Shown piece by piece: positions 4,914 through 22,494 of a DNA stretch of 64,000 nt. Source of the DNA: a virus; the IMG/VR virus record IMGVR_UViG_3300045049_000125, positions 9,840 through 73,839 of that record. The stretch is one strand, 5' to 3'. The translations under genes and the position numbers were made by a program. The notes beneath the pieces were generated by a model. The model saw nothing but the letters and a program-made list of their open reading frames with translations. It did not search any database and was not told where the DNA came from. Every line of letters starts with the position of its first letter. The first letter of the stretch is position 1.

Positions 4914-5145
4914 TTTTAAAACCTCGGATGATGTTGTGTTGCGCGAGTGTATTACAAAGAAATACAGTTGTCTAGTTCGGAATTTCCACAACCCACAGCC
5001 GTGGCCCTTGCCATGCGTAAAAGCCTTCGTCATCGAATTCCGCTACGTATTTCAGGGCTTCGTCATAGGTGATGCACCCGTGCCCTATAACCTCCCGTGG
5101 CGCACCTAACAGAATATGTGACGCCATGATTTTGAATTTCATGGC

Positions 5146-5685
5146 TTAGTCCTGCCAACTCGGGTAATCCGAGCATTCGATGTGCTGAATTTCTCCGCTG
5201 GTCAGCGGAATGACCTTACGTGGTTCCGGTGGATGGTCGGGCATCGGACGAGGCGGCGCAGGATGCGCCTGACGAGGCTTCGGCGTCTCGTCAATCACTA
5301 CCACATCCATTCCCAGGCTCGCAGCGCGGCGGCGCAGGTCTTCAAGGTCACGCAGCTTACGCGCAGCCTCGTCGCTCTTTGTCTGTTTGTTCACATAGGC
5401 AATTAGCGCGGCACGCCAATCCGAATCAAGAAAGATATTCGCGGGAAAGATGAAGTCCTCGCTCTCTCCACCAAACAGTTCTACCTGCACAAGGATTTTG
5501 TTTCCGGAAATACGGACGTTTTCAATCTGCCACGCCCCAAGAACACGAATTTCCGAAGGATAAATTGCCGTGAGTCGGCGATACTCGTTCACTATAGGAA
5601 CAATAGCTATTGCCAAAGCGCTTAGCGCAGTCTCGGCAACGTGCTTCTTGCTTTCAAAATCTTGAATCAACTCAAGAGTATTCAT
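5146..5685 (-). CDS. Hypothetical protein with Pro-rich C-terminus
   Basis: 179 aa ORF, GAGG RBS. Confidence 0.6.
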   Translation of the reverse strand: MNTLELIQDFESKKHVAETALSALAIAIVPIVNEYRRLTAIYPSEIRVLGAWQIENVRISGNKILVQVELFGGESEDFIFPANIFLDSDWRAALIAYVNKQTKSDEAARKLRDLEDLRRRAASLGMDVVVIDETPKPRQAHPAPPRPMPDHPPEPRKVIPLTSGEIQHIECSDYPSWQD

Positions 5686-5848
5686 TTAAAACCTCACTCG
5701 GCAAGTTTGTATGTACTAAGAACGAACAAGGAAAAACCGATCACCATGAGAACAAGCCTTGTTTCCATGTGACCGGGCGGCATCAGCAGTGCTGGACCTA
5801 GGCATACCAAGTAGCTTAGAACCATCAACAGGAATCGATAGCGGCGTT

Positions 5849-6166
5849 TCACAAGGTAAGCCCCAGCGCTCGCGCGATGGAATGGCATACCAAGTCGTAG
5901 CCGTCCAGTAAGCCCGCGTGATAGTCGTTCTCAATGCGGAATCGCTTGGACAAATCCCGAAGCTCCACGAGAAGCCCGTTTTGCCATCCGGCACGGAGTG
6001 GGATGTTCGTGTCAGCCCACCACTTCACGTGTTCAGCGCATTCCAAAACGCCATCGTAAAGCCCGTGGATGAAATCGCTACGGTTTATCGCTACCGGGCC
6101 GGGAATGCCCTCCCGGTAGACGCGCGTTGCATCACGGATAACCTGATGCAAATCGACTGTGCTCAT
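5849..6166 (-). CDS. Hypothetical protein
   Basis: ATGA overlap with upstream ORF. Confidence 0.55.
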   Translation of the reverse strand: MSTVDLHQVIRDATRVYREGIPGPVAINRSDFIHGLYDGVLECAEHVKWWADTNIPLRAGWQNGLLVELRDLSKRFRIENDYHAGLLDGYDLVCHSIARALGLTL

Positions 6167-6378
6167 TTGATGCGGTCCTTAAGAAGTTCGTAAGCCTGTT
6201 CGAGGTCTTCGGCGGCGTCTTTCAAATCGTCGCCGGCGAGGATCATTCCTCGATCAGCTTGGGCACGCATGATGCGCGCACGCAGGGACAAGATGGACAG
6301 AGCGGATTCCACGGGATCGGTGTGGACGGGCTGAATCATTGAGGTTTCCATGTCAATACGGAATGAAGTCTTGACCAT
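6163..6378 (-). CDS. Hypothetical protein
   Basis: Packed ORF. Confidence 0.5.
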   Translation of the reverse strand: MVKTSFRIDMETSMIQPVHTDPVESALSILSLRARIMRAQADRGMILAGDDLKDAAEDLEQAYELLKDRIK

Positions 6379-6679
6379 GGCCTAGCGGATCGTCTTCGGC
6401 CATAGCCTCATTGTACATACGTTCCAGCTCTTCGCGTCGAATGCTGTCACGCTGCGACTCAATAATCGCCTTTGCGTTCGCAAAGTCAACCACTCGCGCA
6501 TTGTTGTGTTTGAAGCGCGACAGGGCCGCGAGCGCCGTCCCCTTGTGGCGATAGCACAGCACGATTTCGGGACGGTCGGAGGTCCACCAGACCGAATTGT
6601 CAAGATTTCGGTCCACAAGCGCGAGAGTATCCACGCCAAGGGATTGCCCTCGGCGTGCGTCGCAGATGATTGCGTACAT
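6353..6679 (-). CDS. Hypothetical phage protein
   Basis: 108 aa, GAGG RBS. Confidence 0.6.
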   Translation of the reverse strand: MYAIICDARRGQSLGVDTLALVDRNLDNSVWWTSDRPEIVLCYRHKGTALAALSRFKHNNARVVDFANAKAIIESQRDSIRREELERMYNEAMAEDDPLGHGQDFIPY

Positions 6680-6692
6680 TTAAAACCTCTTG

Positions 6693-6947
6693 TTATTCGG
6701 AATCCCAGCCCATCGCAAGAGCCAGTTGTTTCACGGCCGCGCGGCTGTCATCGTTGTCGCGGATGTAGCCAAGGTTTGGAAGGTTGCCCATTCGCCACAG
6801 AAGCAATTCGCCCGCTGCTGCACGCAGCGCGTTCAGCTCTTGAAGGACGGTTTGCGCCTCGTCGGGCGTCAGGATCGCACAACCGACGTAATGACCATCC
6901 CGTGGGAAGTTAATGGCATTTTCGAGGATGTTCCGGGCGGCGCTCAT
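6693..6947 (-). CDS. Hypothetical protein
   Basis: ATGA coupling with 6944..7153. Confidence 0.55.
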   Translation of the reverse strand: MSAARNILENAINFPRDGHYVGCAILTPDEAQTVLQELNALRAAAGELLLWRMGNLPNLGYIRDNDDSRAAVKQLALAMGWDSE

Positions 6948-7153
6948 AGGACGCGCACCCAATGGAAGCCGTCCGCGTCCTCGTAGTGGCCGCCCGGCTC
7001 AAGGCAACGTACACGCGGAAGCTCGTCGTCAGGAAGGAAGGAGGGAAGGTTATTGTCAGAAATGGCGCGCCAATCGTCGCCTGCCTGAACCCGGCGCGCT
7101 TCGTGAAGCGCGCGATCTAGGGTATCACTGAGAACGTAAATTGCATCTTTCAT
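6944..7153 (-). CDS. Hypothetical protein
   Basis: 69 aa ORF. Confidence 0.55.
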   Translation of the reverse strand: MKDAIYVLSDTLDRALHEARRVQAGDDWRAISDNNLPSFLPDDELPRVRCLEPGGHYEDADGFHWVRVL

Positions 7154-7180
7154 GATTGTGAGCCTGTGTGGATTGAGGGT

Positions 7181-7405
7181 TTAGATCGTGATGCCGTACT
7201 CAACGAAGTCGCGCGCGGCCTCGGTCGGAACATAGCACGTGCCGTAATCGCTATCTTCCCGCTTGAGGTAACCCATGCGGATCAGCTTGTTGATTGTGCG
7301 GCGCGCGCTCAGGTAACCGGTGAAATGGCTATCCATGGAGAAGGCAAAGCCCGTGCGGACGGCAACGTTGATGGTCTTGACTTCGATCTTGGTCAACTTG
7401 TTCAT
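7181..7405 (-). CDS. Small early protein
   Basis: Preceded by TTGACA-16-TATGAT promoter and CACACATTCGGAG leader. Confidence 0.6.
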   Translation of the reverse strand: MNKLTKIEVKTINVAVRTGFAFSMDSHFTGYLSARRTINKLIRMGYLKREDSDYGTCYVPTEAARDFVEYGITI

Positions 7406-7460
7406 TTCGTACTCCGAATGTGTGTTAGGTGTGAGAATCATACACCCTAATTTGAAACTG

Positions 7461-7589
7461 TCAAGCGATGGATAGCACTACTTCGCTATATCCGCTTTCC
7501 AACTTCCATTTTGCGAATGCGGCAGCGTTGACCCAATCGTCAAAAACTTGTGAACTGTTGTCCCAAGACACTTTCCACTTTTTGTTCAT
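7461..7589 (-). CDS. Small protein (42 aa), missed by ORF track
   Basis: MNKKWKVSWDNSSQVFDDW...; ATGA coupling with upstream ORF; its stop lies in the next -35 box. Confidence 0.55.
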   Translation of the reverse strand: MNKKWKVSWDNSSQVFDDWVNAAAFAKWKLESGYSEVVLSIA

Positions 7590-7813
7590 GATCGTTCGTC
7601 CAATGAGTGTTCTTTGTCGCATTGTCGCATAGCCTTATCCATGGTTCTATGCGTAACGATAGTTCCCGGCGCCCATGTCGTTCCTGAACGACGATACGCG
7701 GCCGAATGCCATACCCCATTGATCTTCCACACGTAATAACGGTGGTCTTCATCCGGAACGGCAATGTTCATCCGGTATTTATCCGGAGGGACAGGCTTAA
7801 ATTGAAGCTCCAT
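7586..7813 (-). CDS. Hypothetical protein
   Basis: MELQFKPV... ORF. Confidence 0.5.
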   Translation of the reverse strand: MELQFKPVPPDKYRMNIAVPDEDHRYYVWKINGVWHSAAYRRSGTTWAPGTIVTHRTMDKAMRQCDKEHSLDERS

Positions 7814-7830
7814 TCTTACACCTTGGTTAT

Positions 7831-7858
7831 AAAAAGGGCGGCACACGGCCGCCCTTTT
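7831..7858. terminator. Intrinsic terminator downstream of the adhesin gene
   Basis: AAAAGGGCGG...CCGCCCTTTT. Confidence 0.8.
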
Positions 7859-7880
7859 AGATTACATCAGTGCTATTCAA

Positions 7881-8960
7881 TTACCAAGCGTACCCGGCCG
7901 AAACCTTGACCGCGAGGTGATGCCCGAACCCATAGGAATCGGACAGCGCTCGGCTGATGCCTCCACCGATGTTGAACTGTTCGTTGACCTGATAGCCGAA
8001 CGCCAGACCCATGGCCGAGGCGCCATTGAACGATCCGAAGCCGCCGCCCACCCACTTCTGACCAGGAGCCAGTTGCGGAACCTGCGGAATCGCCATGGCC
8101 TGCGCCGTGCCGATGCTGGCGAAGCGAATGGCCTTGGTCAGGCCGGCGGCCACCTGTCGATCAGTGTAGGCGTTCGCCCAATTCAGGGTCTCAGCGGATG
8201 CGGACGCCACGCGGCTGTCGGTATATGCGGACGCGCTGGCGACGGCCGAGGCAGTTGCAGCAGTGGTCGCTGCGTTCAGTTGGTCCACGGTAACGGCGTC
8301 CGGAGCATTCTGACCTGCCGGACCCTGCGGACCTGCGGGGCCTTGCGGGCCGGTATCGCCCTTGGGGCCAGCCACGCCGGACTGCGCCAGAATATCCACG
8401 CGGGTCGAAAGCGCCGAAACCTGCGAACTCAGACCATTGAACTGAGCCATGTTCACGGCGTCACCATCATTGATGCCGGCGGCCACGTGGATCAGGCGCC
8501 GGTCACCGTACGTTGTGGAACCGAAAGATACGACATTGGACAATCCGTCATCGGACGATCCGAAACCGAACACGCCAGACATGGTGCCACTGGCCCAATT
8601 GAATGCGCCCACCGATGTGGTGTAATCGCCCGTGGCGCTCGACTTGTAGCCGATAGCCGAGCGGTACGCTTCGCCGGCATCATGCGCAGTGGTGCTGATC
8701 GTACCGGTATAGGCATACGCGCCCAGGGCGGTATCGCCCCGACCGATGGCCCATGCGGAATAGCCGACTGCCGTGCCGTAGTCGCCGGCCTTGGCGATGC
8801 GTGGTCGCGTGACGCCATCCGGGCCAGTAACGTTCATGGTGGGCGTGCTGGCGCCGATGGCGACAGACTGCGGAGTGGTGGGAAAACCTACCGGAATGGT
8901 CTGAGCGAACGCGCCCAGGGCCACGAAGGCCATGACTACGGAAAAGAGAATGCGTTTCAT
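7881..8960 (-). CDS. YadA-family trimeric autotransporter adhesin with collagen-like insert
   Basis: Signal peptide; SVAIG/TAVG/TALG/SAIG head repeats; neck RRLIHVAAGINDGDAVN; GPxGxx repeats; AYTD stalk; beta-barrel anchor ending SAGYAW. Confidence 0.9.
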   Translation of the reverse strand: MKRILFSVVMAFVALGAFAQTIPVGFPTTPQSVAIGASTPTMNVTGPDGVTRPRIAKAGDYGTAVGYSAWAIGRGDTALGAYAYTGTISTTAHDAGEAYRSAIGYKSSATGDYTTSVGAFNWASGTMSGVFGFGSSDDGLSNVVSFGSTTYGDRRLIHVAAGINDGDAVNMAQFNGLSSQVSALSTRVDILAQSGVAGPKGDTGPQGPAGPQGPAGQNAPDAVTVDQLNAATTAATASAVASASAYTDSRVASASAETLNWANAYTDRQVAAGLTKAIRFASIGTAQAMAIPQVPQLAPGQKWVGGGFGSFNGASAMGLAFGYQVNEQFNIGGGISRALSDSYGFGHHLAVKVSAGYAW

Positions 8961-9045
8961 GTGCGATTCCTCGATGGTTGGTAATGGAAGGTGTTGCGGC
9001 TCTTTTATACATCACCTTTGCTGAACGCCAGCCTACTGTTTTAAA

Positions 9046-9306
9046 TCACAGACTTGACATAAAGCCCGACAGGTCAACGCCATAGGTCTTGATGGCGCAG
9101 ACATGGATTTTCTCCGGCCGGCTGCGCCGCGAAGGCTCGAACAGACGCCATGCGCCGTCCTCACGTTGACCCCACACCAATCCCGCCTTTCCACAGCGTT
9201 GGCAGACGAGATATTGCGGCTCTTCGTCGTATTGGTCGTCAGCGTATGGGATGCCGCATGCGCGGTCGATCATGCGATCAACGAAGAAATCGGCCCAATC
9301 ACCCAT
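9046..9306 (-). CDS. Small Zn-ribbon protein
   Basis: CQRCG...HVC motif. Confidence 0.6.
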   Translation of the reverse strand: MGDWADFFVDRMIDRACGIPYADDQYDEEPQYLVCQRCGKAGLVWGQREDGAWRLFEPSRRSRPEKIHVCAIKTYGVDLSGFMSSL

Positions 9307-9452
9307 CACCAACCCGCCTCATAGCCGGAGCCGTCGCATTCGGGACACTCCACGAAGTCATCTTCGTCTTCATCCCAAATCTCGCCCGTTCCTTCGCAGA
9401 TTTCGCAAAGCTCGTAGTCCCCTTCGCACAACCCACAGTAGCACTTAGCCAT
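9306..9452 (-). CDS. Acidic Cys-rich mini-protein (48 aa), missed by ORF track
   Basis: MAKCYCGLCEGDYELCEICEGTGEIWDEDEDDFVECPECDGSGYEAGW; DnaJ-type CxxCxGxG repeats; AGGA RBS. Confidence 0.7.
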   Translation of the reverse strand: MAKCYCGLCEGDYELCEICEGTGEIWDEDEDDFVECPECDGSGYEAGW

Positions 9453-9454
9453 GG

Positions 9455-9619
9455 TCAAATTCCTTGTTTTGAAGCGTAGTTGCCAAAACTGGCGTACTGA
9501 TGCGGACGTTTCTTTTTCGTCGTCAGCGCGTTGCCGCCGGCCACCTTGTCTTTGCGAAGCTCCCAGGACAAGCGATTGGCTTCACGCCAGGGGTTAACCT
9601 TCTTCGGCTTGGCATCCAT
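9455..9619 (-). CDS. Small basic protein
   Basis: MDAKPKKVNPW... Confidence 0.45.
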   Translation of the reverse strand: MDAKPKKVNPWREANRLSWELRKDKVAGGNALTTKKKRPHQYASFGNYASKQGI

Positions 9620-10086
9620 TAAAAATCGCCGTCTTTGACGTGAAAGCACATGATGCCGTTCTTGCGCCACATGTCCACGATGCGGCGCCGATCATCAAAG
9701 ACGCCCACGAGTCGTGCACGATCTTCCGGGAGCATACGATCAAGCATTTCCTGTTTGATGACGTTATCCGGACGGTAGTCACCATTCGCTCGCATGACGA
9801 CTTGGCCGTTTTCAAGTTGGGCTGCGTCTAGTGGAGTGTAATTCCACAGCCATTCCAGCGTCTTCCCTCGCACGCTCTCAGGACGCCCGGTGAAGAACCA
9901 GATTTCGGCGTCATGCACATGCAATGCTTCGAGAACTTGCATGACCGGCTCATTCACGCCGTCCTTGTCGCACAGCTCGTAGAACACGTCCCACTGCTGC
10001 TCCGCGCGGTCGCATTCCACAAGGTGGCGACGGTGATCCGGATCAGATAGCGTGCCGTCGATGTCGAAAATCCAAAGGGGTCTCAC
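9619..10086 (-). CDS. HAD-family 3'-phosphatase (T4 PseT phosphatase-domain-like)
   Basis: FDIDGTL, FTGR, MR..GDYRPD..IK, FDDR motifs. Confidence 0.88.
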   Translation of the reverse strand: MRPLWIFDIDGTLSDPDHRRHLVECDRAEQQWDVFYELCDKDGVNEPVMQVLEALHVHDAEIWFFTGRPESVRGKTLEWLWNYTPLDAAQLENGQVVMRANGDYRPDNVIKQEMLDRMLPEDRARLVGVFDDRRRIVDMWRKNGIMCFHVKDGDF

Positions 10087-12149: not shown

Positions 12150-13688
12150 TCAAGCGGCCAAACCGTACGTCCCATGCACTCCGGCCATAATTCGCTCCGC
12201 GATTACGCGCAGGCTTTCGAGCTGTTCAGATACTTGGATCGACACACTGTACTCAGCTTCACGCCGAGCACGCGCGTCCGAATCCCGTTCAGCCTGCTTT
12301 TCGGCGGTCTCCGTCCCCGCCCGCTGCTCGCGTTCCAGCTTGAGGCGAAGATGCGTTTTGCGCGGCAAGCGGCCGTTGGCGATGTCGGCGCGGCGCTTGT
12401 AGCGAGCAGCCACCTCGGCGGCTTTCTTTTCATCACGCTCGCGGCGCAGGCGTTCCGAACGCGATTCCACGCGAGCCAGCGCATTCACTTGCTCTGCGAC
12501 GGCCGCCTGTTCGGCTTCCTGAGCAGCCTTCGCTGCCTTGGCGGCTTCGTTGGCCGCACGCTTCTTGAGCTGTCGCGTCTGCCATGACTTGTCCTTGTAG
12601 TGGCGGAAGCGCCGCGCAATCTGCTTGGCTTCGTCTTCGTAATCCGCCGGGTCAAGCCCGAGCATTACCAGCATGTTTTTGAACCCTTCAAGGCGCTTTT
12701 CGAGCGGCATCATGCGCAGTTCGTCATTGTTCTCCGGAATGTCGGTGGCGTCGAACGTCAGCGCGGTTTGCCGGCTCACGTGGCGCACGATGGCGTCAAC
12801 CAGACGAACATACTTGGAAAGGTCTTCGACGTTTTCCGGCATTTCAAAATTGCGGAATTCGACGGTTCCCAGGCTGTTTTCGACGCGAACGATATAGTCT
12901 TTCGCCATCGGCAGCGTAACCGCACCATACTGAAACGACGTCTTATTCATCCCTTTCTTGCGGTAGATCAATCGCTTGCGCGAATCGTGCAGGCGCGCAT
13001 AGACATTTTCCAGCTCGCGCAGCCAGTAATTGCGATCCCACTCGTACATCCATTCGCTGCGCTGATGCAGGTTGCGAGTAAGCTGCTGAATCTCGCGGAG
13101 ATTATCCGCAATGTCCATTTCAATCTGTTCCACGGTCTGAACGCTTGCGCCACGCAAGCCGAGATGTACGGCCGTCAGCGGTTCGGCGTTGATGTTGTCC
13201 GTCAGGCCAATGAACGCCCAGGACAACCACGGATTCTTCGCCGCGAAGACGGCCATGCGGCGGCAGTACAGCTTGCGCGCGCTCAGGTCGCCGATGTGGC
13301 GCGTATCGGTGTGAATGTGGGCGCCACCGCCATTGAAATGCACGAGCTTCGGCGTCAGGTTCAGGCTTTCCGCATGGTGCGTGATGACGCGCGCCCGACG
13401 CATGAGGGCATCCAGCGATTTGTAAGGTTTCGTGGGGACTTCCACGCAATCCGGGTCCGTACCGCAGTGGTAAACCGCAACCTTGCGTAGGCGGAGAATC
13501 GTTTTGAGCTGTGCCGCGAAGAAGCACACCGCGCTATGGCGGTCATGCACGCAAGATGCCCAACCCTCGTCTTCATCGTCATCGTTGCGCAGATTGTAGA
13601 GCGCACCGTAAGCATCGGCTATTTCGTCCCACACGGCCGGCATGTAGGTCAGTTCAATGCCCATCTTGGTGGCAAGCTGCAAATTCAT
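12150..13688 (-). CDS. Putative amidoligase (COOH-NH2 ligase fold) with charged C-terminal tail
   Basis: MGIEL, VEVPT, GGAHIH, GTVEFR motifs. Confidence 0.7.
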   Translation of the reverse strand: MNLQLATKMGIELTYMPAVWDEIADAYGALYNLRNDDDEDEGWASCVHDRHSAVCFFAAQLKTILRLRKVAVYHCGTDPDCVEVPTKPYKSLDALMRRARVITHHAESLNLTPKLVHFNGGGAHIHTDTRHIGDLSARKLYCRRMAVFAAKNPWLSWAFIGLTDNINAEPLTAVHLGLRGASVQTVEQIEMDIADNLREIQQLTRNLHQRSEWMYEWDRNYWLRELENVYARLHDSRKRLIYRKKGMNKTSFQYGAVTLPMAKDYIVRVENSLGTVEFRNFEMPENVEDLSKYVRLVDAIVRHVSRQTALTFDATDIPENNDELRMMPLEKRLEGFKNMLVMLGLDPADYEDEAKQIARRFRHYKDKSWQTRQLKKRAANEAAKAAKAAQEAEQAAVAEQVNALARVESRSERLRRERDEKKAAEVAARYKRRADIANGRLPRKTHLRLKLEREQRAGTETAEKQAERDSDARARREAEYSVSIQVSEQLESLRVIAERIMAGVHGTYGLAA

Positions 13689-15256: not shown

Positions 15257-15496
15257 TTAGTGGAGAATGTGCCCGGGTGAACGTTCGACACGCATCACCT
15301 GAATACCTATTTCAGAGGAAATTGCCTCTATGCGGTCGCTTAATTGGAAATTGAAATCAACTCCGGGATTTAGAGGCGAAGTTTCGACATATTGGATATC
15401 CAGGTCTGTAACGATGACTGTGACATACGGAGATTCAAAATCCACCGTGTCACAGTGGTAAAACGCCATACCGTATTTTAAACCATTATCAGACAT
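15257..15496 (-). CDS. Hypothetical acidic protein (AT-rich DNA)
   Basis: Packed ORF. Confidence 0.5.
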   Translation of the reverse strand: MSDNGLKYGMAFYHCDTVDFESPYVTVIVTDLDIQYVETSPLNPGVDFNFQLSDRIEAISSEIGIQVMRVERSPGHILH

Positions 15497-15707
15497 TTTC
15501 ACCTCTGCGCTTAATTGCGGATTTAATGCGTCTTACACGACGCACGCTTAGGGCTTTCATAGACTGCGCTTTGCGCATGCTTTCCTCAGCCCTAGCGATT
15601 CGATTTTCCTCCGCATTTAGCCACACTTGAAGTGTGAGAAGTGAAGTATTCGGGTTTTCAATATCGGCCAATAAATCTCTATCTCGATTGCGTTCAGAAG
15701 CTTTCAT
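15489..15707 (-). CDS. Small coiled-coil protein (AT-rich DNA)
   Basis: Preceded by TTGCTA...TACAGT promoter-like site. Confidence 0.55.
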   Translation of the reverse strand: MKASERNRDRDLLADIENPNTSLLTLQVWLNAEENRIARAEESMRKAQSMKALSVRRVRRIKSAIKRRGENV

Positions 15708-15796
15708 GATTTCTCGTAGTCGTGACGTAATACAAGGCTCACTGTACAGCTAAAGAAATACGTTTAGCAAGCCCATACAGCAGTTGCCGAAAACCT

Positions 15797-15905
15797 CGAC
15801 ATAGGGAACATAGGCATGCTACCCTCAACGATGTGATAGCGGTTCCACCGCAGCCCGGGACGGCTTCTCATCACCTTGAGGTATGCATGCACTGTTCCTA
15901 TGTCG
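15797..15905. ncRNA. Candidate structured RNA: long bulged stem with branched apex
   Basis: CGACATAGG/CCTATGTCG, GAACA/TGTTC, GCATGC/GCATGC, TACC-TCAA/TTGAGGTA; apical hairpins GCGG-TTCCA-CCGC and AGCC-CGGGAC-GGCT. Confidence 0.5.
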
Positions 15906-15925
15906 CCGACCGAAATTTAGTCATT

Positions 15926-15951
15926 AAAAAGCCCGCTTTACGCGGGCTTTT
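15926..15951. terminator. Bidirectional intrinsic terminator
   Basis: AAAAAGCCCGC-TTTAC-GCGGGCTTTT. Confidence 0.8.
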
Positions 15952-15962
15952 CTGTTTAAAAC

Positions 15963-16979
15963 TCAACCCGGCCATTTCCAGAATTCGGCCAAAATGGGCG
16001 GTTGTGCGAATCCCCAGCGGTGCGCAATCCCCATGGCATTCAGGCCGCGAGCTGTGGCCTGAATCAGTCGTTGGGCGAGTGTACGCTGTGCCATTCGGCG
16101 CCACTCGTCTCCCTTCTTGCGAGCGACATCTCCCGTCTCAGGGTGCAGACCCATATCACGCAGGAAGACGATCCCGCCTGTGGGAAGCGTGATTCGCAGG
16201 CCGGCAACCTGTGGAGTAAGGCGCACGTTTTCAAACGTGATTCGATGCGCCGGGCGGTTTTCGCCATCCTTCACCGGACCCACATCGATGGTGACTGGTT
16301 GCGCCGAATCCAGCGCGATTTTAGACGCGAGATACACATTTTCGGTGAACATCTCTCCATGCACCTGCGCCAGTATCGTGGCATTGCCCGGACCTTGCCA
16401 ACCGGCCGATTCGATGCCATGGGCATCCATGTGCATCGCCTCGTCAAAATCGTAACCTAGCGCTTGCAGGATGTGCATACCTTTCAAATGGGAAGTGTTC
16501 ATGAGCCATGCGAACGTCCACGCCACGCCACCCCAATCAAGGTTTGCTGCGAACGTCCCCGGCTCGCCGCCGGCCTTGATGTAGGCGCGGATACCGTTCA
16601 CCCACGCCTGTGCGGCCGGATCGTGATCTACGCCCGCGCGAACCAGTCCCTCGGCGTCCACGTGGTCGCATTCGTACGTGATTGCCAGCAAATCCAGGCT
16701 CCCCACCTGATATCCCTTCAATCGATCACAGAGAACCGAGCAACCCGTATCCATGTCCGGATTGATGAACCAAATCTTGTCGGACACGTTCATGAGTTTG
16801 CGCGCCAGTTCGTTGCCGAGGCGTGTGGGGAAATCCACCTTGTTCACGCGCCGAAGATCACTCAGGCGCGACAGGCGCGGGCCGAACTCTTCAAAGGGCA
16901 ATACCTGTTGGAGCGGATACATCGGATAGATGCCCGAATCGGCGTATTCGATGTAATCGGGCGTGACATTGATGAACAT
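15963..16979 (-). CDS. Degenerate family-A (SPO2/APSE-like) DNA polymerase domain, predicted inactive
   Basis: Colinear remnants: DLLAIT (motif A), KGMHILQALGY (motif B), LRITLPTG, RLIQATAR; motif C HDE absent. Confidence 0.5.
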   Translation of the reverse strand: MFINVTPDYIEYADSGIYPMYPLQQVLPFEEFGPRLSRLSDLRRVNKVDFPTRLGNELARKLMNVSDKIWFINPDMDTGCSVLCDRLKGYQVGSLDLLAITYECDHVDAEGLVRAGVDHDPAAQAWVNGIRAYIKAGGEPGTFAANLDWGGVAWTFAWLMNTSHLKGMHILQALGYDFDEAMHMDAHGIESAGWQGPGNATILAQVHGEMFTENVYLASKIALDSAQPVTIDVGPVKDGENRPAHRITFENVRLTPQVAGLRITLPTGGIVFLRDMGLHPETGDVARKKGDEWRRMAQRTLAQRLIQATARGLNAMGIAHRWGFAQPPILAEFWKWPG

Positions 16980-16980
16980 T

Positions 16981-17517
16981 TTAAAATCCTCGGTAGATGA
17001 GTCCACGGAATGTGCCACATTCCTGGCAAAACCAACAGTGTTTAGGGTTCTCGGCTCCGCATGGCGTGTATTCGCCTTCCTGAGCAATCAGCCCCATGGC
17101 GCGCGAGCGCATCGGGAAGGGCTCTCCGCAGCGCCACGTGCGCCGCGCAGGCTCAAGCCCTAGAATTGGCTCGGGCTCCATCACGTGGACGATAGGACGC
17201 GGCATGGCGATCTTCTCGAAGTACCGGCGCACGCCCTTCCATCGCTTGTCGCTGTCCACGCGGTGCATGTTGTAGCGCTGATGGACGATGCACACATCCA
17301 CCGGACCCATGCGGCGCTTGTTCGCGCTGTAGTGGCTCAGGGCCATGACAAGCACTTGGTCACGATGGTCGCAGCCTGCCGACAGATTGCGCTTAGGTGG
17401 ATGCGCAAGGATGTGGTCTGCGAGCATGGCCGCGTCTTGTGGAAACGCTTCGAGAATCAGCACCCGTGCGTTAGGGCGCTGATTCAAAACGTTCGCTAGG
17501 ATTGTCATGATTTCCAT
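16981..17517 (-). CDS. Degenerate SF2 (RadD/YejH-like) helicase domain fused to a Zn ribbon
   Basis: Aligns by eye to RecA1 of 44356..46143 with DEAH replaced by HQRY and no Walker A; ends CGAENPKHCWFCQECG. Confidence 0.5.
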   Translation of the reverse strand: MEIMTILANVLNQRPNARVLILEAFPQDAAMLADHILAHPPKRNLSAGCDHRDQVLVMALSHYSANKRRMGPVDVCIVHQRYNMHRVDSDKRWKGVRRYFEKIAMPRPIVHVMEPEPILGLEPARRTWRCGEPFPMRSRAMGLIAQEGEYTPCGAENPKHCWFCQECGTFRGLIYRGF

Positions 17518-17520
17518 GGA

Positions 17521-17751
17521 TCATTTCCAGCGCGCACCCGTCCGACCGCTGATTTTATGCTGCAAGATCATTTCGTAAGTTTCCCCGTTGTGCAGCTCCA
17601 CCACGGCGCGGGAATCGTGCTCACCCGTCTCGCCCAACCAGTTGAGCGCGTACTCAATGGCGTCCGTCTGTTCGTAGTCAGGATTGCCGCGAACGATGCT
17701 CTGCTGCGCGCAGAGCGTTCCGGCGCTGTTATAAAACTTGACCTTAATCAC
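17521..17751 (-). CDS. Hypothetical protein
   Basis: AAGGAG RBS. Confidence 0.55.
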   Translation of the reverse strand: MIKVKFYNSAGTLCAQQSIVRGNPDYEQTDAIEYALNWLGETGEHDSRAVVELHNGETYEMILQHKISGRTGARWK

Positions 17752-17880
17752 GTTTGAAAATCTCCTTTATCCGTTTGCGTTCGGCCCGCTTCGCTTGTCG
17801 TTTCTGCTGCTTAATTGCACGTTTCTCCGCACGCTTCTTGTTGCGTGCGGGATCGCGAGCCTTGTCGTCACGTCCGGCGG

Positions 17881-18093
17881 TCATGGCGTCGGACGTGTCA
17901 CCTTGTGGGCCATCACCGCGCTGTACGCGGTGCGAACGTCGCAGTCATGCATGTCGCGATAGGCGCGCACCGCTTCGACCGTCAGTCCGGCATCCATCAG
18001 CTCCGGCCACGGAATTCCTTCGCACAGCTCGCGAAGTTTGGCATCCAGCGCATCGCGTTCGGCCTTGATCCTCAGAATCTCTTTCATGGTCAT
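17881..18093 (-). CDS. Small protein with ribosomal L7/L12 C-terminal-like motif
   Basis: GLTVEAVRAYRDMHDCDVRTAYSAV resembles G.KI.AIK.YR...G..L.EAK..V. Confidence 0.4.
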   Translation of the reverse strand: MTMKEILRIKAERDALDAKLRELCEGIPWPELMDAGLTVEAVRAYRDMHDCDVRTAYSAVMAHKVTRPTP

Positions 18094-18221
18094 TCCACGA
18101 TGAATAGTTCGCCGCACATCTCGCATTCGGTGAAGCCCGTGAAATCACCTTCTTGTTCAAGGGCTTCCCCGCAGGCGGGACAGTCGAAATGGGTGTAGAT
18201 GAATCCGGAAACGCTATCCAT
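18090..18221 (-). CDS. Acidic Zn-ribbon mini-protein (43 aa), missed by ORF track
   Basis: ...CPACGEALEQEGDFTGFTECEMCGELFIVE; ATGA coupling to the next gene. Confidence 0.65.
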   Translation of the reverse strand: MDSVSGFIYTHFDCPACGEALEQEGDFTGFTECEMCGELFIVE

Positions 18222-18223
18222 GG

Positions 18224-18526
18224 TCAATCCTTCCCCTCGAACAGTTCCGGGCACAGGGCGCGGCAGACGGCGAGCGCGCCCTCGCGATCCAGCACCACGC
18301 TATTGCCCATGGAGCGTGACGTTTCACGCTTTCCGGGACGGCTGTAATGCTCCACCATGTGCAGATCGATATGCGCATGATGACCATCTTGCGCTCGCTT
18401 ATCCGCCACGTTGCGAATTTTCAGCGTGGAAACCGTAACACATCCGGTAAGCACGTCATTCACCTGATTAACTACCACGGGATAAAGCGAATCCTCGTGG
18501 AGCGTAGCGACTTTCTGAACGTACAT
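18224..18526 (-). CDS. Hypothetical protein
   Basis: GAGG RBS. Confidence 0.55.
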   Translation of the reverse strand: MYVQKVATLHEDSLYPVVVNQVNDVLTGCVTVSTLKIRNVADKRAQDGHHAHIDLHMVEHYSRPGKRETSRSMGNSVVLDREGALAVCRALCPELFEGKD

Positions 18527-18530
18527 GGTT

Positions 18531-18689
18531 TTAATCCTCGTCAGCGTTGCGGCACGGCGCATTGGCCGCGCGGTTAGTGGCGTCGTTCTTTAGCCAGATG
18601 AGACCGCAGTGAGCGCAGACCGGCCAGTGGCAAATGGTCCACAACCAGCGGTGGGACTTGTCTTTCTTGGGTTTGAACTTGGGAGCCAT
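18531..18689 (-). CDS. Small Cys/His protein
   Basis: CAHCGL.WLKN motif. Confidence 0.55.
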   Translation of the reverse strand: MAPKFKPKKDKSHRWLWTICHWPVCAHCGLIWLKNDATNRAANAPCRNADED

Positions 18690-18693
18690 CGTA

Positions 18694-19596
18694 TTACATT
18701 CCGAAATACTTTTCAAAGCAAATAGGGCCAATGCCTCGGTCGATGCTTTCCCCGTTGGTCAGCTCGCGACCGCAGCAGGAACACACGCCGAAGCGCTTGC
18801 CGTAGGCGATGGCCGATTGTGCGGGATCGGCGGTGACGGCCACGATTTCCGCTGTCTGCTCGGCAGTGCAGTCGCGCGTGCCCAGGAAGCGGCCGTTCAC
18901 GATCTTGCCCAGGTAATCGCCCGTGGCCTTGTGCTTCACGTACACGGCGCCTGCGTTGACGCTCTGCGCCTTGGCAAGCGAGAAGACGAATGCGTGATGC
19001 TCGCCGGCAAGGAGGATTTTCGGCGTCCGGATGCCCTTTTCCGTGGCTCGGATGAGGCTTTCCTTGATGTTCGAGACCGCGACCGCAGGCGCCTTGGCTT
19101 CGCGTTCAGCCTTGGCGGCAGCCAGCTTCGCCACGCAAGATTTAGCGGCGGCTAACTGGCGCTCCGTCAGCTCGCCGAACTTCTCGGCGGTCTCGCGCAG
19201 GCTAATGGCGAAATCGAAGTTTGAACCTGTCCACCATCGCACGATGTCCGGATGAGCGGCGCAGAACGCGGCGAATTTCTCGGCCACGGCATTCTGCTTG
19301 CGCTCCTTGGCCTTGCGCGAGGCGGCGCGGCTCTTGGCTCGCTGTTCCGGGCTGGTGGCGAATTCGAGCTTTCCCGTACCGCCGCATTTGAAGCATGTCG
19401 AACCGTGGATGCTGTAGCCACGATATCGGCCGGTGCCCATGCACTTGGGGCACTTTTCGATGTAGGGGTGCACTGCCGGTAGCGCCTTGACCTGCGTGAT
19501 GTCGGTGGGAACGCCCAGGCGCTCGGCCAGCTTATCAAGCTGGCCCACGTTAAGGCGCACATCGTCCAGGTCGTTCAGGTCGTTGAAGTCGATCAT
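18694..19596 (-). CDS. DUF6011-like protein with N-terminal DnaJ-type Zn finger
   Basis: CPKCMGTG, CFKCGGTG; C-terminal CSCCGRELT...SIDRGIGPIC. Confidence 0.75.
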   Translation of the reverse strand: MIDFNDLNDLDDVRLNVGQLDKLAERLGVPTDITQVKALPAVHPYIEKCPKCMGTGRYRGYSIHGSTCFKCGGTGKLEFATSPEQRAKSRAASRKAKERKQNAVAEKFAAFCAAHPDIVRWWTGSNFDFAISLRETAEKFGELTERQLAAAKSCVAKLAAAKAEREAKAPAVAVSNIKESLIRATEKGIRTPKILLAGEHHAFVFSLAKAQSVNAGAVYVKHKATGDYLGKIVNGRFLGTRDCTAEQTAEIVAVTADPAQSAIAYGKRFGVCSCCGRELTNGESIDRGIGPICFEKYFGM

Positions 19597-19599
19597 GAC

Positions 19600-19803
19600 T
19601 CAGCCCTCCGCCTTGAGAAGACGAGCAGCCATCATGTGCTGCACCTTTACGTTATTCCAGAAAACAAGGTCGGCAGCATTGGAACGGATGCTGAAAGCAT
19701 CGGGGATATGGCGACCATCTTGGCGAATCTCCACGATCATGCGGGAAGCGTCGCGGGCCTCGCGGATGTGGAAACGAATCTTGGCAGCAGTGGAAGCGCG
19801 CAT
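19600..19803 (-). CDS. Small early protein
   Basis: TTGACA-17-TATTCT promoter plus CACACATTCGGAG leader. Confidence 0.6.
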   Translation of the reverse strand: MRASTAAKIRFHIREARDASRMIVEIRQDGRHIPDAFSIRSNAADLVFWNNVKVQHMMAARLLKAEG

Positions 19804-19858
19804 GTTGAACTCCGAATGTGTGAAAGTGGAACTAGAATATAGCTCCACTTTAAAACTG

Positions 19859-20104
19859 TCAAGCGTCGATGCCGGGGAAGTAGTACGAAAGCGCCTTCCG
19901 ACCTTCCGCCAGACAATCCGCCATTTCCTCGGAAAGCCAGCCTAGTCCCCGTGCACGCTTTTCGGCCAAATGCACGAAATTCAGCAGCGCGTTGACGACC
20001 GGAGGAACGTGGTCTCGCTGTTCGCGCAGCCATTCGGCAGTGAGCGGCGCATGATGGGTTTCAGCAACGATGGCGGCGCCTTCAAACTGATTACGAATGT
20101 TCAT
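19859..20104 (-). CDS. Small early protein
   Basis: GGGAG RBS; stop overlaps next -35 box. Confidence 0.6.
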   Translation of the reverse strand: MNIRNQFEGAAIVAETHHAPLTAEWLREQRDHVPPVVNALLNFVHLAEKRARGLGWLSEEMADCLAEGRKALSYYFPGIDA

Positions 20105-20421: not shown

Positions 20422-22494
20422 TCAACGGTTCAATTTGACGTATTCGTGCGGATAGCCGAATTGGTCATTTTCGTGAAAAATCTCGAAGAAATGACGGGTT
20501 GCACCGGCTTTGAGCAGAGCGTTCACGCGGTTACGATCCCATCCCGGCCAGCCCGGCATCTCCCAGCACATCGCGTGCACATGTTCGCGCGTACCGGGTT
20601 TCATGGTGAACCGTTCCATATTCGTCCGGAACATGAAGTCAGCCAGCAACGCGCAATCTTCGTCAGAAATGCCGTTGTTACCCTGCGCAATGGGTCCGTT
20701 GCTCAGGTTCGAGGTAAACGCTTCAAGATCGGGCGCCGCATCGATCACGCATGACATATCGGGCTGGCCCCATTGATCGGTTCCAACCTGTACACCCTTC
20801 AATACAAAATTCGCACCGATATTGTCCGCGCCGTCCTTCACCTTCTTCGTGGACCATGAACGAATGCCGCTGTCGCGGTCACGTTTAACCTCGATAGCCG
20901 AATCGATGCCTGCCAGAAATGCGCTAGACCCTCGCGGACCGCGCTCCGTGTCCTTACCGCTATGGTGAATCAGGATCACCACGCATTGCGTCTCACGAGC
21001 CAGGGTTTCGACCGCAACGAGATATTTCGACATCTCGGCCATGTCGTTTTCGTTCATGCCCGGCGCCGATTTCGCCAGCGTATCGATGCAAATGACGCCC
21101 TGACGCTGCTTGTTCTTGTAGATGGTGCGAATGAGCTTTTCCATATCTTCGGATTTGAGAATGTTCAAGCCATTCGTGAGCATCATCATGCGGCCCATGT
21201 TGCCGTGATGGATGCGATAGGCATACACGCGATTGCGCAAACCGGCCTCGCCTTCGAGACCAACATAAGTCACAGGGACTTGCCGTGTCTTGCGACCGAA
21301 CCAGTCATGACCGGATGCCACGGCCGCGAGCATATCCAGTGCAAGGAACGTCTTGCCCGAGCCCGAAGGCCCGTACACTGATGCCACCCCGCGTGCAGGC
21401 AACACGTTGTGAATGATCCACTCGGTTTGTGTGTATTCGGTCACGTCGTCAGTCCACAGTGCAGGGAATTCTTTTTCGCCATCCTCTTCGCCGAAAGCAA
21501 TTTCAATGTCTTCGGGATTGAACATTCGCCCCGATGCTTCAAGATCGGCGGCGGCGGCATTGATGTTTCGTTTAAGCCATCCCTCATATTGAGCCCGGCT
21601 CAGACCTGCGCGATTCTCGGAGCGATTCATGTACTCCGCGCATGGACTCTGCGTGTATAGACGCAATACCTGCTCATAATTTAATGAGCACTGTATCAGG
21701 TCCATAACCACTTGATAATGCATGTCAGAACCTCCCGTTTGGGATTGGTTCTTGTACATGTAATTTGCAGTCTCTGGGCAGCGGCGGAACATCTGCACCA
21801 TGACTTCAAAATCCGTATGCTTCGGATTATCGTGCCATTGGGCATTACTTCCTTGCGCTGCCTCTTTTGCAAGAGCGCAGCGTTTGAACAAGTAGTTTTG
21901 GAAATTTTCAGGAAGTGTGGAGAAATCAGCAAATCCCATGTCGGGATCGCTTACCACATCACCTGTTAGAAACACGAAACCGTTAACAACGCGAGTATCT
22001 ACTTTTTTCTCGCCGTTGTTGGTATTGCTCAATTGAGCCGCTTCAATGTCGCTCAACCAGTAAAAAGCGTGATAGCCCACACCCGACACACTGCGCTCCG
22101 TCCACGTGGGAGCGCGGTCCAAGATGTCATAGTGGGCTTGCTGTGTGAGCGCGGGCGTCGTCGGCGCGTCCGTGTCATCCAAATCCACACAGACGAGATT
22201 TTCAGGCATGTACAAAATGAGGCCGTGTACCTTGTTAGGCTGCTCGGCCTTGAGGTATTCGACTTCCTGAAACGCCTCTTCAAACGACATAGACGTTTCG
22301 AGACGGTTGGGACTGTAGCGTTCCCCCGTCACGGGATTGCGACCCACGGTCTTCACCACATCACCCGCATCATCCCAATGCGTCGAATAGGTGCCGAATC
22401 GGAAATCTTGGAAGTTGCGGAAAATCTCCGGTGTTACATGCGACTGTGCAGTCGCCACTGCTTCTCCGGAAAAATCGAAATTCAAATCTGCCAT
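20422..22494 (-). CDS. Primase-polymerase / RepA-like (AAA_25) helicase
   Basis: VDLDD, ERSVSGVGYH (prim-pol); GPSGSGKT, IDTL, IHHSGKD..RGPRGSS (helicase). Confidence 0.9.
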   Translation of the reverse strand: MADLNFDFSGEAVATAQSHVTPEIFRNFQDFRFGTYSTHWDDAGDVVKTVGRNPVTGERYSPNRLETSMSFEEAFQEVEYLKAEQPNKVHGLILYMPENLVCVDLDDTDAPTTPALTQQAHYDILDRAPTWTERSVSGVGYHAFYWLSDIEAAQLSNTNNGEKKVDTRVVNGFVFLTGDVVSDPDMGFADFSTLPENFQNYLFKRCALAKEAAQGSNAQWHDNPKHTDFEVMVQMFRRCPETANYMYKNQSQTGGSDMHYQVVMDLIQCSLNYEQVLRLYTQSPCAEYMNRSENRAGLSRAQYEGWLKRNINAAAADLEASGRMFNPEDIEIAFGEEDGEKEFPALWTDDVTEYTQTEWIIHNVLPARGVASVYGPSGSGKTFLALDMLAAVASGHDWFGRKTRQVPVTYVGLEGEAGLRNRVYAYRIHHGNMGRMMMLTNGLNILKSEDMEKLIRTIYKNKQRQGVICIDTLAKSAPGMNENDMAEMSKYLVAVETLARETQCVVILIHHSGKDTERGPRGSSAFLAGIDSAIEVKRDRDSGIRSWSTKKVKDGADNIGANFVLKGVQVGTDQWGQPDMSCVIDAAPDLEAFTSNLSNGPIAQGNNGISDEDCALLADFMFRTNMERFTMKPGTREHVHAMCWEMPGWPGWDRNRVNALLKAGATRHFFEIFHENDQFGYPHEYVKLNR

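What the first reader, a model, noticed from the sequence alone, without database searches (positions are those of the whole stretch)
15963..17517. Candidate new system: a translationally coupled pair of dead replisome enzymes (pseudo-helicase + pseudo-PolA)
Seen: two intact ORFs 1 nt apart, followed by a terminator, each resembling a replication enzyme with catalytic motifs lost but no frameshifts or internal stops. The phage also has intact PolB (35655-37763) and SF2 helicase (44356-46143) genes. Known: several anti-phage systems are triggered by phage polymerase, helicase or SSB. Inference: an old PolA/helicase module was retained as decoys or inhibitors (titrating replisome-sensing defences, or binding host Pol I/RadD partners) rather than decaying.
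Basis: partly seen in the sequence, partly recalled or inferred. Interest (0 to 1): 0.85.

Follow-up and report, generated by a model that had tools for sequence, protein, structure and literature searches.

The report
Conserved orphan gene pair behind phage primase
Two tightly coupled genes at the end of a soil phage's primase-helicase operon are real, conserved and under purifying selection, but calling them a "dead helicase" and a "dead DNA polymerase" rests only on weak fold hints, and their function is unknown.

Summary
The anatomy is confirmed. Gene A (16981-17517, minus strand, 178 aa) and gene B (15963-16979, minus strand, 338 aa) are intact. One nucleotide separates them. A GAGGA ribosome-binding site for B lies in A's last codons, and a strong intrinsic terminator follows B.

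The pair is not decaying. It recurs, coupled and in the same order, in a distant relative (G001), directly behind the PrimPol/AAA_25 primase-helicase. A and B homologues share contig lengths in four further cases. A roughly 91%-identical strain variant gives pN/pS of about 0.18 for B's N-terminal half.

The "dead enzyme" reading is not established:
- No member of either family hits Pfam, PHROGs, NCBIfam, PADLOC or PDB sequences.
- hhalign of the B family against a phage PolA profile scores below a reversed control.
- A shows no similarity to the phage's own SF2 helicase.
- A is an alpha/beta domain of unclear fold plus a C-terminal zinc ribbon with four invariant cysteines.

My best guess (about 0.4) is a nucleic-acid-binding accessory heterodimer of the primase-helicase. 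The decoy idea is untested. The scan noted this pair only on this genome.

The parts
16981..17517 (-). Gene A, 178 aa, basic (pI 9.2). Family of 11 known members.
   Evidence: ORF and translation. Homologues at 32-71% identity and invariant residues. pI.
17173..17517 (-). N-terminal alpha/beta domain of A (residues 1-115). Conserved RPNARVL(I/V)LE strand with E23 and D28, then G48, Y63, G71, D74 and N83. Fold not assigned.
16984..17136 (-). C-terminal zinc ribbon of A (residues 128-178). Invariant W128, C130, G131, C153, N157, C164, C167, F170, R171, G172 and Y175.
   Evidence: Alignment A4. Sub-threshold hits to Zn_Ribbon_1 in 5 of 11 members (best E 0.0022) and to Zn_Ribbon_Prim in 3 of 11. 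Resembles the L40e/uS14 zinc ribbons.
16987..16991 (-). Shine-Dalgarno-like GAGGA for gene B, inside A's last codons (…YRGF*), 7 nt before B's ATG.
   Evidence: Read directly from the sequence.
15963..16979 (-). Gene B, 338 aa. Acidic N-terminal half (pI 4.8) and basic C-terminal core (pI 10.0). Family of 17 known members, 228-372 aa.
   Evidence: ORF and translation. Homologues. pI. Purifying selection in a strain variant.
16080..16367 (-). Conserved core of B (residues about 205-300): a helix, a beta meander, then a helix. Motifs are A..ALD[ST]PQ..T and ITF.N.R.S..vRGL.i.LPTGG..F.RDA. Invariant A218, A222, D224, T230, R253, G260, L261, F272 and R274.
   Evidence: Alignment A3. This is the best-modelled part of the AF2 model, pLDDT about 65-82.
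15927..15951 (.). Bidirectional intrinsic terminator that ends the operon, 11 nt after B's stop.
   Evidence: Perfect 10-nt arms. RNA fold -23.7 kcal/mol, z -3.86.
20422..22494 (-). Context: PrimPol + AAA_25 primase-helicase. The A-B pair directly follows this gene in the relative G001.
   Evidence: Pfam and PHROGs. 49% identical to L013:5914-7998. In L013 the A homologue's ATG at 7989 (the residue where protein P0025 begins) lies inside the primase-helicase ORF that ends at 7998. The listed ORF starts at a GTG at 7977.

Best explanation
A and B are the two subunits of a non-catalytic, nucleic-acid-binding accessory factor of this phage lineage's replication machinery. They are made in fixed ratio by translational coupling at the 3' end of the primase-helicase operon.

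Shown:
- Both are real, selected genes.
- Their order and coupling are conserved.
- In the relative G001 they are chained by overlapping start and stop codons to the PrimPol/AAA_25 primase-helicase.
- A ends in a zinc ribbon with four invariant cysteines.
- B has a strongly conserved basic core rich in invariant Arg, Asp, Asn, Thr and Gln.

Inferred:
- Basic A and acidic-N-terminal B form a heterodimer.
- A's zinc ribbon supplies in trans the template- or DNA-recognition zinc module. DnaG- and T7 gp4-type primases carry that module in cis. This AEP-type primase-helicase shows no CxxC motif.
- B's core binds DNA or the primase-helicase.
- B may descend from the fingers and palm of a family A polymerase with the catalytic carboxylates lost. 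This last point is only a weak lead.
For: Coupling and terminator:
- 1-nt spacing, an internal SD and a terminator after B.

Synteny in G001/L013:
- Order is DUF669 SSB-like (5100-5861), primase-helicase (5914-7998), A homologue (listed ORF 7977-8537), then B homologue (8534-9508), then a non-coding gap.
- The two genomes are colinear.

Co-occurrence:
- A and B homologues report identical longest-contig lengths of 17193, 14034, 70867 and 24977 bp.

Selection:
- pN/pS about 0.18 with third-position excess, p 4e-5.
- Invariant residues persist at 19-30% identity.

Protein features:
- Zinc ribbon with weak Zn_Ribbon_Prim and Zn_Ribbon_1 hits.
- Complementary charge: A pI 9.2, B N-half 4.8, B core 10.0.
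- No CxxC motif is visible in the part of the primase-helicase printed in the alignment (residues 1-673 of 690).
- Weak PolA-like fold for B from two independent models.

Possible origin next to the pair:
- A candidate origin with two perfect DnaA boxes and iterons lies directly after B in G001.
Against:
- Both AF2 models are poor (pLDDT 51 and 37), so no fold is assigned.
- B is the most diverged of all genes shared by G000 and G001 (27%, against 49-59% for the primase-helicase, polymerase and SF2 helicase). That is more typical of host-interaction genes than of core replication factors.
- In the window itself about 2.9 kb of small ORFs separates A from the primase-helicase.
- Cultured phages with the nearest polymerase (Seuratvirus CAjan) have no evident counterpart. 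The pair is therefore not essential for this type of replisome.
- The origin-like region of G001 is not conserved next to B in the window.
Confidence: 0.4

Rival explanations
1. Anti-defence or host-takeover pair. A and B bind or titrate a host factor or a defence sensor, for example one that recognises replisome proteins, and do not take part in phage replication.
For: - B is the fastest-diverging shared gene and A is among the faster ones.
- Both families are restricted to a handful of uncultured phages and are absent from 50,697 cultured phage records.
- The pair sits at the end of an early operon, next to ORFan genes.
- B gives a weak PolA-like fold hint while lacking conserved catalytic carboxylates.
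Against: - No similarity to any known anti-defence protein, and no PADLOC-related hit.
- Tight coupling to the primase-helicase in G001.
- A conserved core with invariant polar residues persists at 19-30% identity, which argues for a conserved target rather than an arms-race surface.
- The helicase likeness of A is not supported.
Confidence: 0.2
2. B is a new enzyme. Its invariant D224, R253 and R274, with the nearly invariant Q227, N251 and T267, form an active site acting on DNA or nucleotides. A is its zinc-ribbon targeting or regulatory subunit.
For: - The pattern of invariant polar and charged residues sits in a compact core.
- Purifying selection.
- The partner carries a nucleic-acid-type zinc ribbon.
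Against: - Only one invariant acidic residue, so a two-metal polymerase or nuclease site is unlikely.
- No match to any enzyme family or solved structure.
- No neighbouring nucleotide-metabolism or modification genes.
Confidence: 0.15
3. A phage-borne two-gene conflict module, such as a toxin-antitoxin pair, superinfection exclusion or a defence system, carried as cargo.
For: - Two tightly coupled genes followed by a terminator.
- Patchy distribution.
- Neighbouring promoter-ORF cassettes in the window.
Against: - No PADLOC, Pfam or NCBIfam hit.
- The syntenic position in two diverged, colinear genomes is unlike mobile cargo.
- No match in plasmids or in the scanned prokaryote genome contigs.
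Confidence: 0.07
4. Decaying remnants of replication genes with no function.
For: No recognisable catalytic motifs and no family hits.
Against: - Intact frames of conserved length in 17 and 11 homologues.
- Conserved coupling.
- pN/pS about 0.18.
Confidence: 0.02

Closest known systems
Family A DNA polymerases (Pfam PF00476; T7 gp5, Klenow, and split phage 'DNA polymerase part II' proteins)
   Same: - B's order of secondary structure (strand, about seven helices, beta hairpins, helix) and its size resemble the stretch from motif A to the C-terminus of PolA. That comparison is my own reading.
   Different: - No HMM or profile-profile similarity. The reversed control scores higher.
- Motifs A, B and C are absent or not conserved.
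- There is no thumb or exonuclease region.
- B's strongest conservation is in a motif unknown in PolA.
Zinc-binding domains of primases (T7 gp4 / DnaG ZBD, Pfam Zn_Ribbon_Prim) and generic zinc ribbons (L40e, uS14)
   Same: - Four invariant cysteines in a ribbon-like spacing at A's C-terminus.
- Weak hits to Zn_Ribbon_1 and Zn_Ribbon_Prim.
- The gene sits directly behind a primase-helicase that shows no CxxC motif.
   Different: - All hits are below the curated cut-offs.
- The first cysteine is 22 residues from the second, not a CxxC knuckle.
- The ribbon is C-terminal, on a separate protein, and ends in a family-specific FRG..Y motif.
SF2 helicase RecA-like domains (ResIII / Helicase_C), including the phage's own helicase at 44356-46143
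   Same: An alpha/beta domain of about 110 aa with a hydrophobic strand ending in Glu (VLILE). ESM Atlas lists helicase clusters at feature scores of 0.77 and, for most helicase rows, TM 0.31-0.40. One 117-aa Helicase_C cluster reaches 0.56 when normalised by its own length.
   Different: - BLASTP E 0.32 and hhalign probability 0.05 against the phage's helicase.
- No Pfam hit in any of 11 members.
- No Walker A motif and no motif VI.
- The AF2 model matches DHHA1-type domains instead.
Seuratvirus/Queuovirinae replication module (phage CAjan)
   Same: The window's polymerase is 45% identical to the CAjan and Seurat PolB. The SF2 helicase, Cas4-like exonuclease and DUF669 content are similar.
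   Different: CAjan has no detectable A or B homologue. No pair of similar size follows its primase.

Membership tests
Family A DNA polymerase (PF00476) | Significant match to the DNA_pol_A profile | tested here: not met
   No hit at E<=1 for any of the 17 B-family members. A six-frame search of the whole phage genome with PF00476 finds nothing at E<=10.
Family A DNA polymerase (PF00476) | Profile-profile similarity to genuine PolA sequences | tested here: not met
   hhalign of A3 against T7 gp5 gives probability 0.3. Against an 11-sequence phage PolA profile it gives probability 0.12, score 15.9. The reversed B alignment scores 20.1.
Family A DNA polymerase (PF00476) | Catalytic motifs: motif A Asp, motif B R...K...F...YG, motif C HDE | tested here: not met
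   The only invariant acidic residue in the 17-member alignment is D224. The candidate positions D77, D177, D232 and D275 all vary. No RxxxK O-helix motif is conserved.
Family A DNA polymerase (PF00476) | Right-hand fold (palm, fingers, thumb) | tested here: inconclusive
   [not shown]
SF2 helicase (ResIII / Helicase_C) | Profile match, or similarity to the phage's own SF2 helicase | tested here: not met
   No helicase family in Pfam for any of the 11 A-family members. BLASTP E 0.32 and hhalign probability 0.05 against 44356-46143.
SF2 helicase (ResIII / Helicase_C) | RecA-like fold | tested here: inconclusive
   [not shown]
Zinc ribbon | Four conserved zinc-ligand cysteines in two knuckles | tested here: met
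   C130, C153, C164 and C167 are invariant in 11 members. The Zn_Ribbon_1, DZR and Zn_Ribbon_Prim hits are all below their curated cut-offs. Metal binding itself was not tested.
Known anti-phage defence or conflict systems (PADLOC) | Match to a PADLOC model | tested here: not met
   No relevant hit among 10 members of both families.

The most novel reading that the evidence does not exclude
B is a genuine descendant of a family A polymerase. It has been reduced to a thumbless fingers-palm remnant without catalytic carboxylates, and it has gained a new conserved surface. Together with the zinc-ribbon protein A it forms a pseudo-polymerase complex. That complex would either act as a non-catalytic primer-template or primase-handoff factor, or mimic a replisome to defence sensors.
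Probability: 0.2. Interest if true: 0.7.

Novelty: new variant of a known kind. Interest (0 to 1): 0.35.

Why it matters
If the pair works with the AEP-type primase-helicase, it would be a new kind of trans-acting zinc module plus partner for phage priming or initiation. If B really derives from PolA, it would be a rare documented pseudo-polymerase kept under selection in a phage. As it stands, the pair is a well-defined, conserved piece of phage dark matter: two new protein families of 11 and 17 known members. The anatomy is clear and the hypotheses are testable, but no function has been demonstrated.

Tried and rejected

Structure:
The deeper alignments A3 and A4 could not be refolded.
- Foldseek against PDB with the B model: nothing at E<=0.001.
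- BFVD with the A model: nothing.

Sequence searches with no result:
- PDB sequence searches with four profiles: chance hits only.
- Scans of IMG/VR, JGI metagenome contigs and GTDB genome contigs found only one related locus, G001.
- tblastn against cultured phages with four family members, and against plasmids: no match.
- No close cultured relative of the primase-helicase.
- A literature search for phage PolA pseudoenzymes returned nothing relevant.

Expression and selection:
- No RNA holder was listed for the stretch.
- dN/dS between G000 and G001 was not attempted, because 27-39% amino-acid identity is saturated.
- The SNP list from read laying showed only 40 of 91 differences, all inside B, so A could not be tested in the same way.

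Gene model:
- The longer TTG-started ORF 15963-17087 (374 aa), and the extended gene call of P0004, are out-of-frame readings of A's conserved C-terminus. I rejected that start.

Full report
**What is there**

The window is bases 9840-73839 of a 73,839-bp IMG/VR virus record with direct terminal repeats. Its DNA is held by soil and rhizosphere metagenome runs.

At the flagged place two minus-strand ORFs are intact.
- Gene A is 16981-17517 (178 aa, P0001).
- Gene B is 15963-16979 (338 aa, P0002).
- A's TAA stop and B's ATG are one nucleotide apart.
- The last codons of A (TAC CGA GGA TTT TAA) hold a GAGGA 7 nt before B's ATG.
- A longer TTG-started version of B (to 17087) merely reads A's conserved C-terminus out of frame. 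The same artefact appears in the gene call of homologue P0004.
- Eleven nucleotides after B's stop lies a perfect 10-bp hairpin, 15927-15951, flanked by T/A runs. As RNA it folds at -23.7 kcal/mol, z -3.9.

**Are they real genes?**

Yes.

A has 10 known relatives and B has 16. All come from metagenome assemblies, and lengths are conserved (148-182 aa for A, 228-372 aa for B).
- The B family keeps A218, A222, D224, T230, R253, G260, L261, F272 and R274 invariant down to 19% identity. These lie in a core reading ALD[ST]PQ..T … ITF.N.R.S..vRGL.i.LPTGG..F.RDA.
- The A family keeps G48, L56, G71, D74 and N83. It also keeps a C-terminal block: W128, C130, G131, C153, N157, C164, C167, F170, R171, G172 and Y175.

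A 651-nt contig from other soil/rhizosphere runs carries a strain about 91% identical across the A/B junction and B's N-terminal half.
- Of the 40 differences listed, 26 fall on third codon positions (binomial p 4e-5).
- 25 are synonymous, giving pN/pS of about 0.18.
- A +1/-1 indel pair four bases apart restores the frame inside a hypervariable patch.

This contradicts neutral decay.

**Is the pairing conserved?**

Yes.

The only other virus record with the pair is G001 (IMGVR_UViG_3300044656_000109, 41 kb, locus L013). It is colinear with this phage. Its gene order is:
- DUF669 SSB-like protein (5100-5861);
- PrimPol/AAA_25 primase-helicase (5914-7998);
- A homologue (listed ORF 7977-8537; the ATG at 7989, where protein P0025 begins, lies inside the primase-helicase ORF);
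- B homologue (8534-9508, overlapping A's stop);
- a non-coding gap.

A and B homologues also report identical longest-contig lengths of 17193, 14034, 70867 and 24977 bp.

In the window, about 2.9 kb of small ORFs separates the primase-helicase (20422-22494) from A. These include a DUF6011/DnaJ-type zinc-finger protein at 18694-19596. None of these ORFs has a match in G001.

Between the two genomes the amino-acid identities are:

| Gene | Identity |
|---|---|
| DNA polymerase | 59% |
| SF2 helicase | 51% |
| Primase-helicase | 49% |
| DUF669 protein | 49% |
| Gene A | 39% |
| Gene B | 27% |

B is the lowest of all shared genes.

**Do they resemble a helicase and a PolA?**

By sequence, no.
- No member of either family hits Pfam, PHROGs, NCBIfam or PADLOC meaningfully.
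- Profiles find nothing in PDB sequences.
- PF00476 finds nothing in the phage genome at E<=10.
- I built an 11-sequence phage PolA alignment from T7, SP6, an ICP1-like phage, a LUZ24-like 'part II' protein and others. hhalign of the B family against it gives probability 0.12 and score 15.9. The reversed B alignment scores 20.1.
- A against the phage's own SF2 helicase gives BLASTP E 0.32 and hhalign probability 0.05.

By predicted structure, B has a weak but recurrent lead.
- ESM Atlas's own model (pLDDT 0.36) is nearest to DNA_pol_A clusters, TM about 0.31.
- My AF2 model (pLDDT 51) gives phage DNA polymerase I as the two best BFVD hits, E 1.4e-3 and 4e-3.
- These values are below the aligner's stated noise level, and Foldseek against PDB gives nothing. 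I treat this as a lead, not a finding.
- If it is true, the catalytic residues are gone. No candidate motif A or motif C aspartate is conserved.

For A the hints disagree.
- The Atlas lists helicase clusters at feature scores of 0.77 (its best feature hits, 0.79-0.80, carry no family), a level that shuffled proteins often reach. Structure matches to helicase clusters have TM by query 0.31-0.40, and one small Helicase_C cluster reaches 0.56 when normalised by its own length.
- What is solid for A is the zinc ribbon with four invariant cysteines. It gets sub-threshold Zn_Ribbon_1 hits in 5 of 11 members and Zn_Ribbon_Prim hits in 3 of 11, and it resembles the L40e and uS14 ribbons.

**What the phage already has**

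- A real DNA polymerase lies at 35655-37763 (phrog_1252, E 2.7e-190). It is 45% identical to the Seuratvirus/CAjan PolB.
- An SF2 helicase, a primase-helicase and a DUF669 SSB-like protein are also present.
- CAjan has no counterpart of the pair. The pair is therefore accessory to this kind of replisome.

**Most likely mechanism (confidence about 0.4)**

I read the pair as a co-translated heterodimer that binds nucleic acid and assists the primase-helicase.

Steps shown:
- selection on the genes;
- conserved order and coupling;
- chaining to the primase-helicase in G001;
- the zinc ribbon;
- charge complementarity (A pI 9.2; B N-half 4.8, core 10.0).

Steps inferred:
- the two proteins form a heterodimer;
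- A's ribbon acts in trans as the zinc module, which the AEP-type primase-helicase does not show (no CxxC motif is visible in the residues printed);
- B's basic core contacts DNA or the helicase.

A weak extra hint comes from G001. The 830-nt gap after B there looks like an origin.
- It holds the only two perfect DnaA boxes in 16.5 kb, in inverted orientation.
- It holds two 40-nt direct repeats with ACTTTACGCA units.
- It has AT-rich tracts.
- The window has only a 255-nt gap after B, with a GC dip to 44-47% at 15300-15900 and no such boxes.

**Rivals**

- An anti-defence or host-takeover pair (0.2) fits B's rapid divergence and the narrow distribution. Nothing else supports it.
- B as a new enzyme (0.15) fits the invariant polar core, but there is only one invariant acidic residue.
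- Conflict-module cargo (0.07) fits poorly with the fixed syntenic position.
- Decay (0.02) is contradicted by the selection data.

**Verdict**

- The label 'pseudo-helicase' is unsupported.
- The label 'pseudo-PolA' is a weak lead.
- The decoy function is speculation.

The scan has noted this pair only on this genome. Interest is moderate. The pair comprises two new protein families in a replication module, with clear experiments available, but nothing yet that would surprise a specialist.

Noticed in passing
L013:9600-10330: Candidate replication origin directly after the B homologue in the relative G001. It has a terminator, an AT-rich tract, and two perfect inverted DnaA boxes (TTATCCACA at 9864-9872 and 9929-9937). 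These are the only perfect copies in 16.5 kb. There are also two 40-nt direct repeats holding ACTTTACGCA units (9818-9857 and 9960-9999). It is not conserved in the window.
   Followed up: partly
window 17521-20104: A block of about ten small ORFs sits between the primase-helicase and gene A. It includes a 300-aa DUF6011 protein with a DnaJ-type CXXCXGXG finger (18694-19596). It has TTGACA promoter-like boxes at 20425 and 19862. None of these ORFs has a match in G001, so the block was either inserted here or lost there.
   Followed up: partly
window 15300-15900: GC falls to 44-47%, against 55-64% around it, just downstream of the terminator after gene B. The stretch covers two small ORFs and the non-coding 15708-15962.
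   Followed up: no
window 16712-16746: A strain variant from other soil/rhizosphere runs has a dense cluster of changes here, plus a +1 insertion after 16715 and a -1 deletion at 16719 that restore the frame. This is a hypervariable patch in B, residues about 78-90, the same segment that is gapped in the family alignment.
   Followed up: partly
window 12150-13688: A 512-aa minus-strand ORF with no Pfam or PHROGs hit. It is conserved at 37% identity in G001, downstream of the pair.
   Followed up: no
window 35655-37763: The phage's DNA polymerase (phrog_1252) is 45% identical to those of Seuratvirus/Queuovirinae coliphages (CAjan, Seurat). Pfam barely sees it (DNA_pol_B_2, E 0.0019).
   Followed up: partly
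window 15963-17087: The mechanical 374-aa ORF, and the 372-aa gene call of homologue P0004, both start inside gene A. Their first ~20 (P0004) to 36 (window ORF) residues are A's conserved C-terminus read in another frame. This is a gene-calling artefact, not a fusion.
   Followed up: yes
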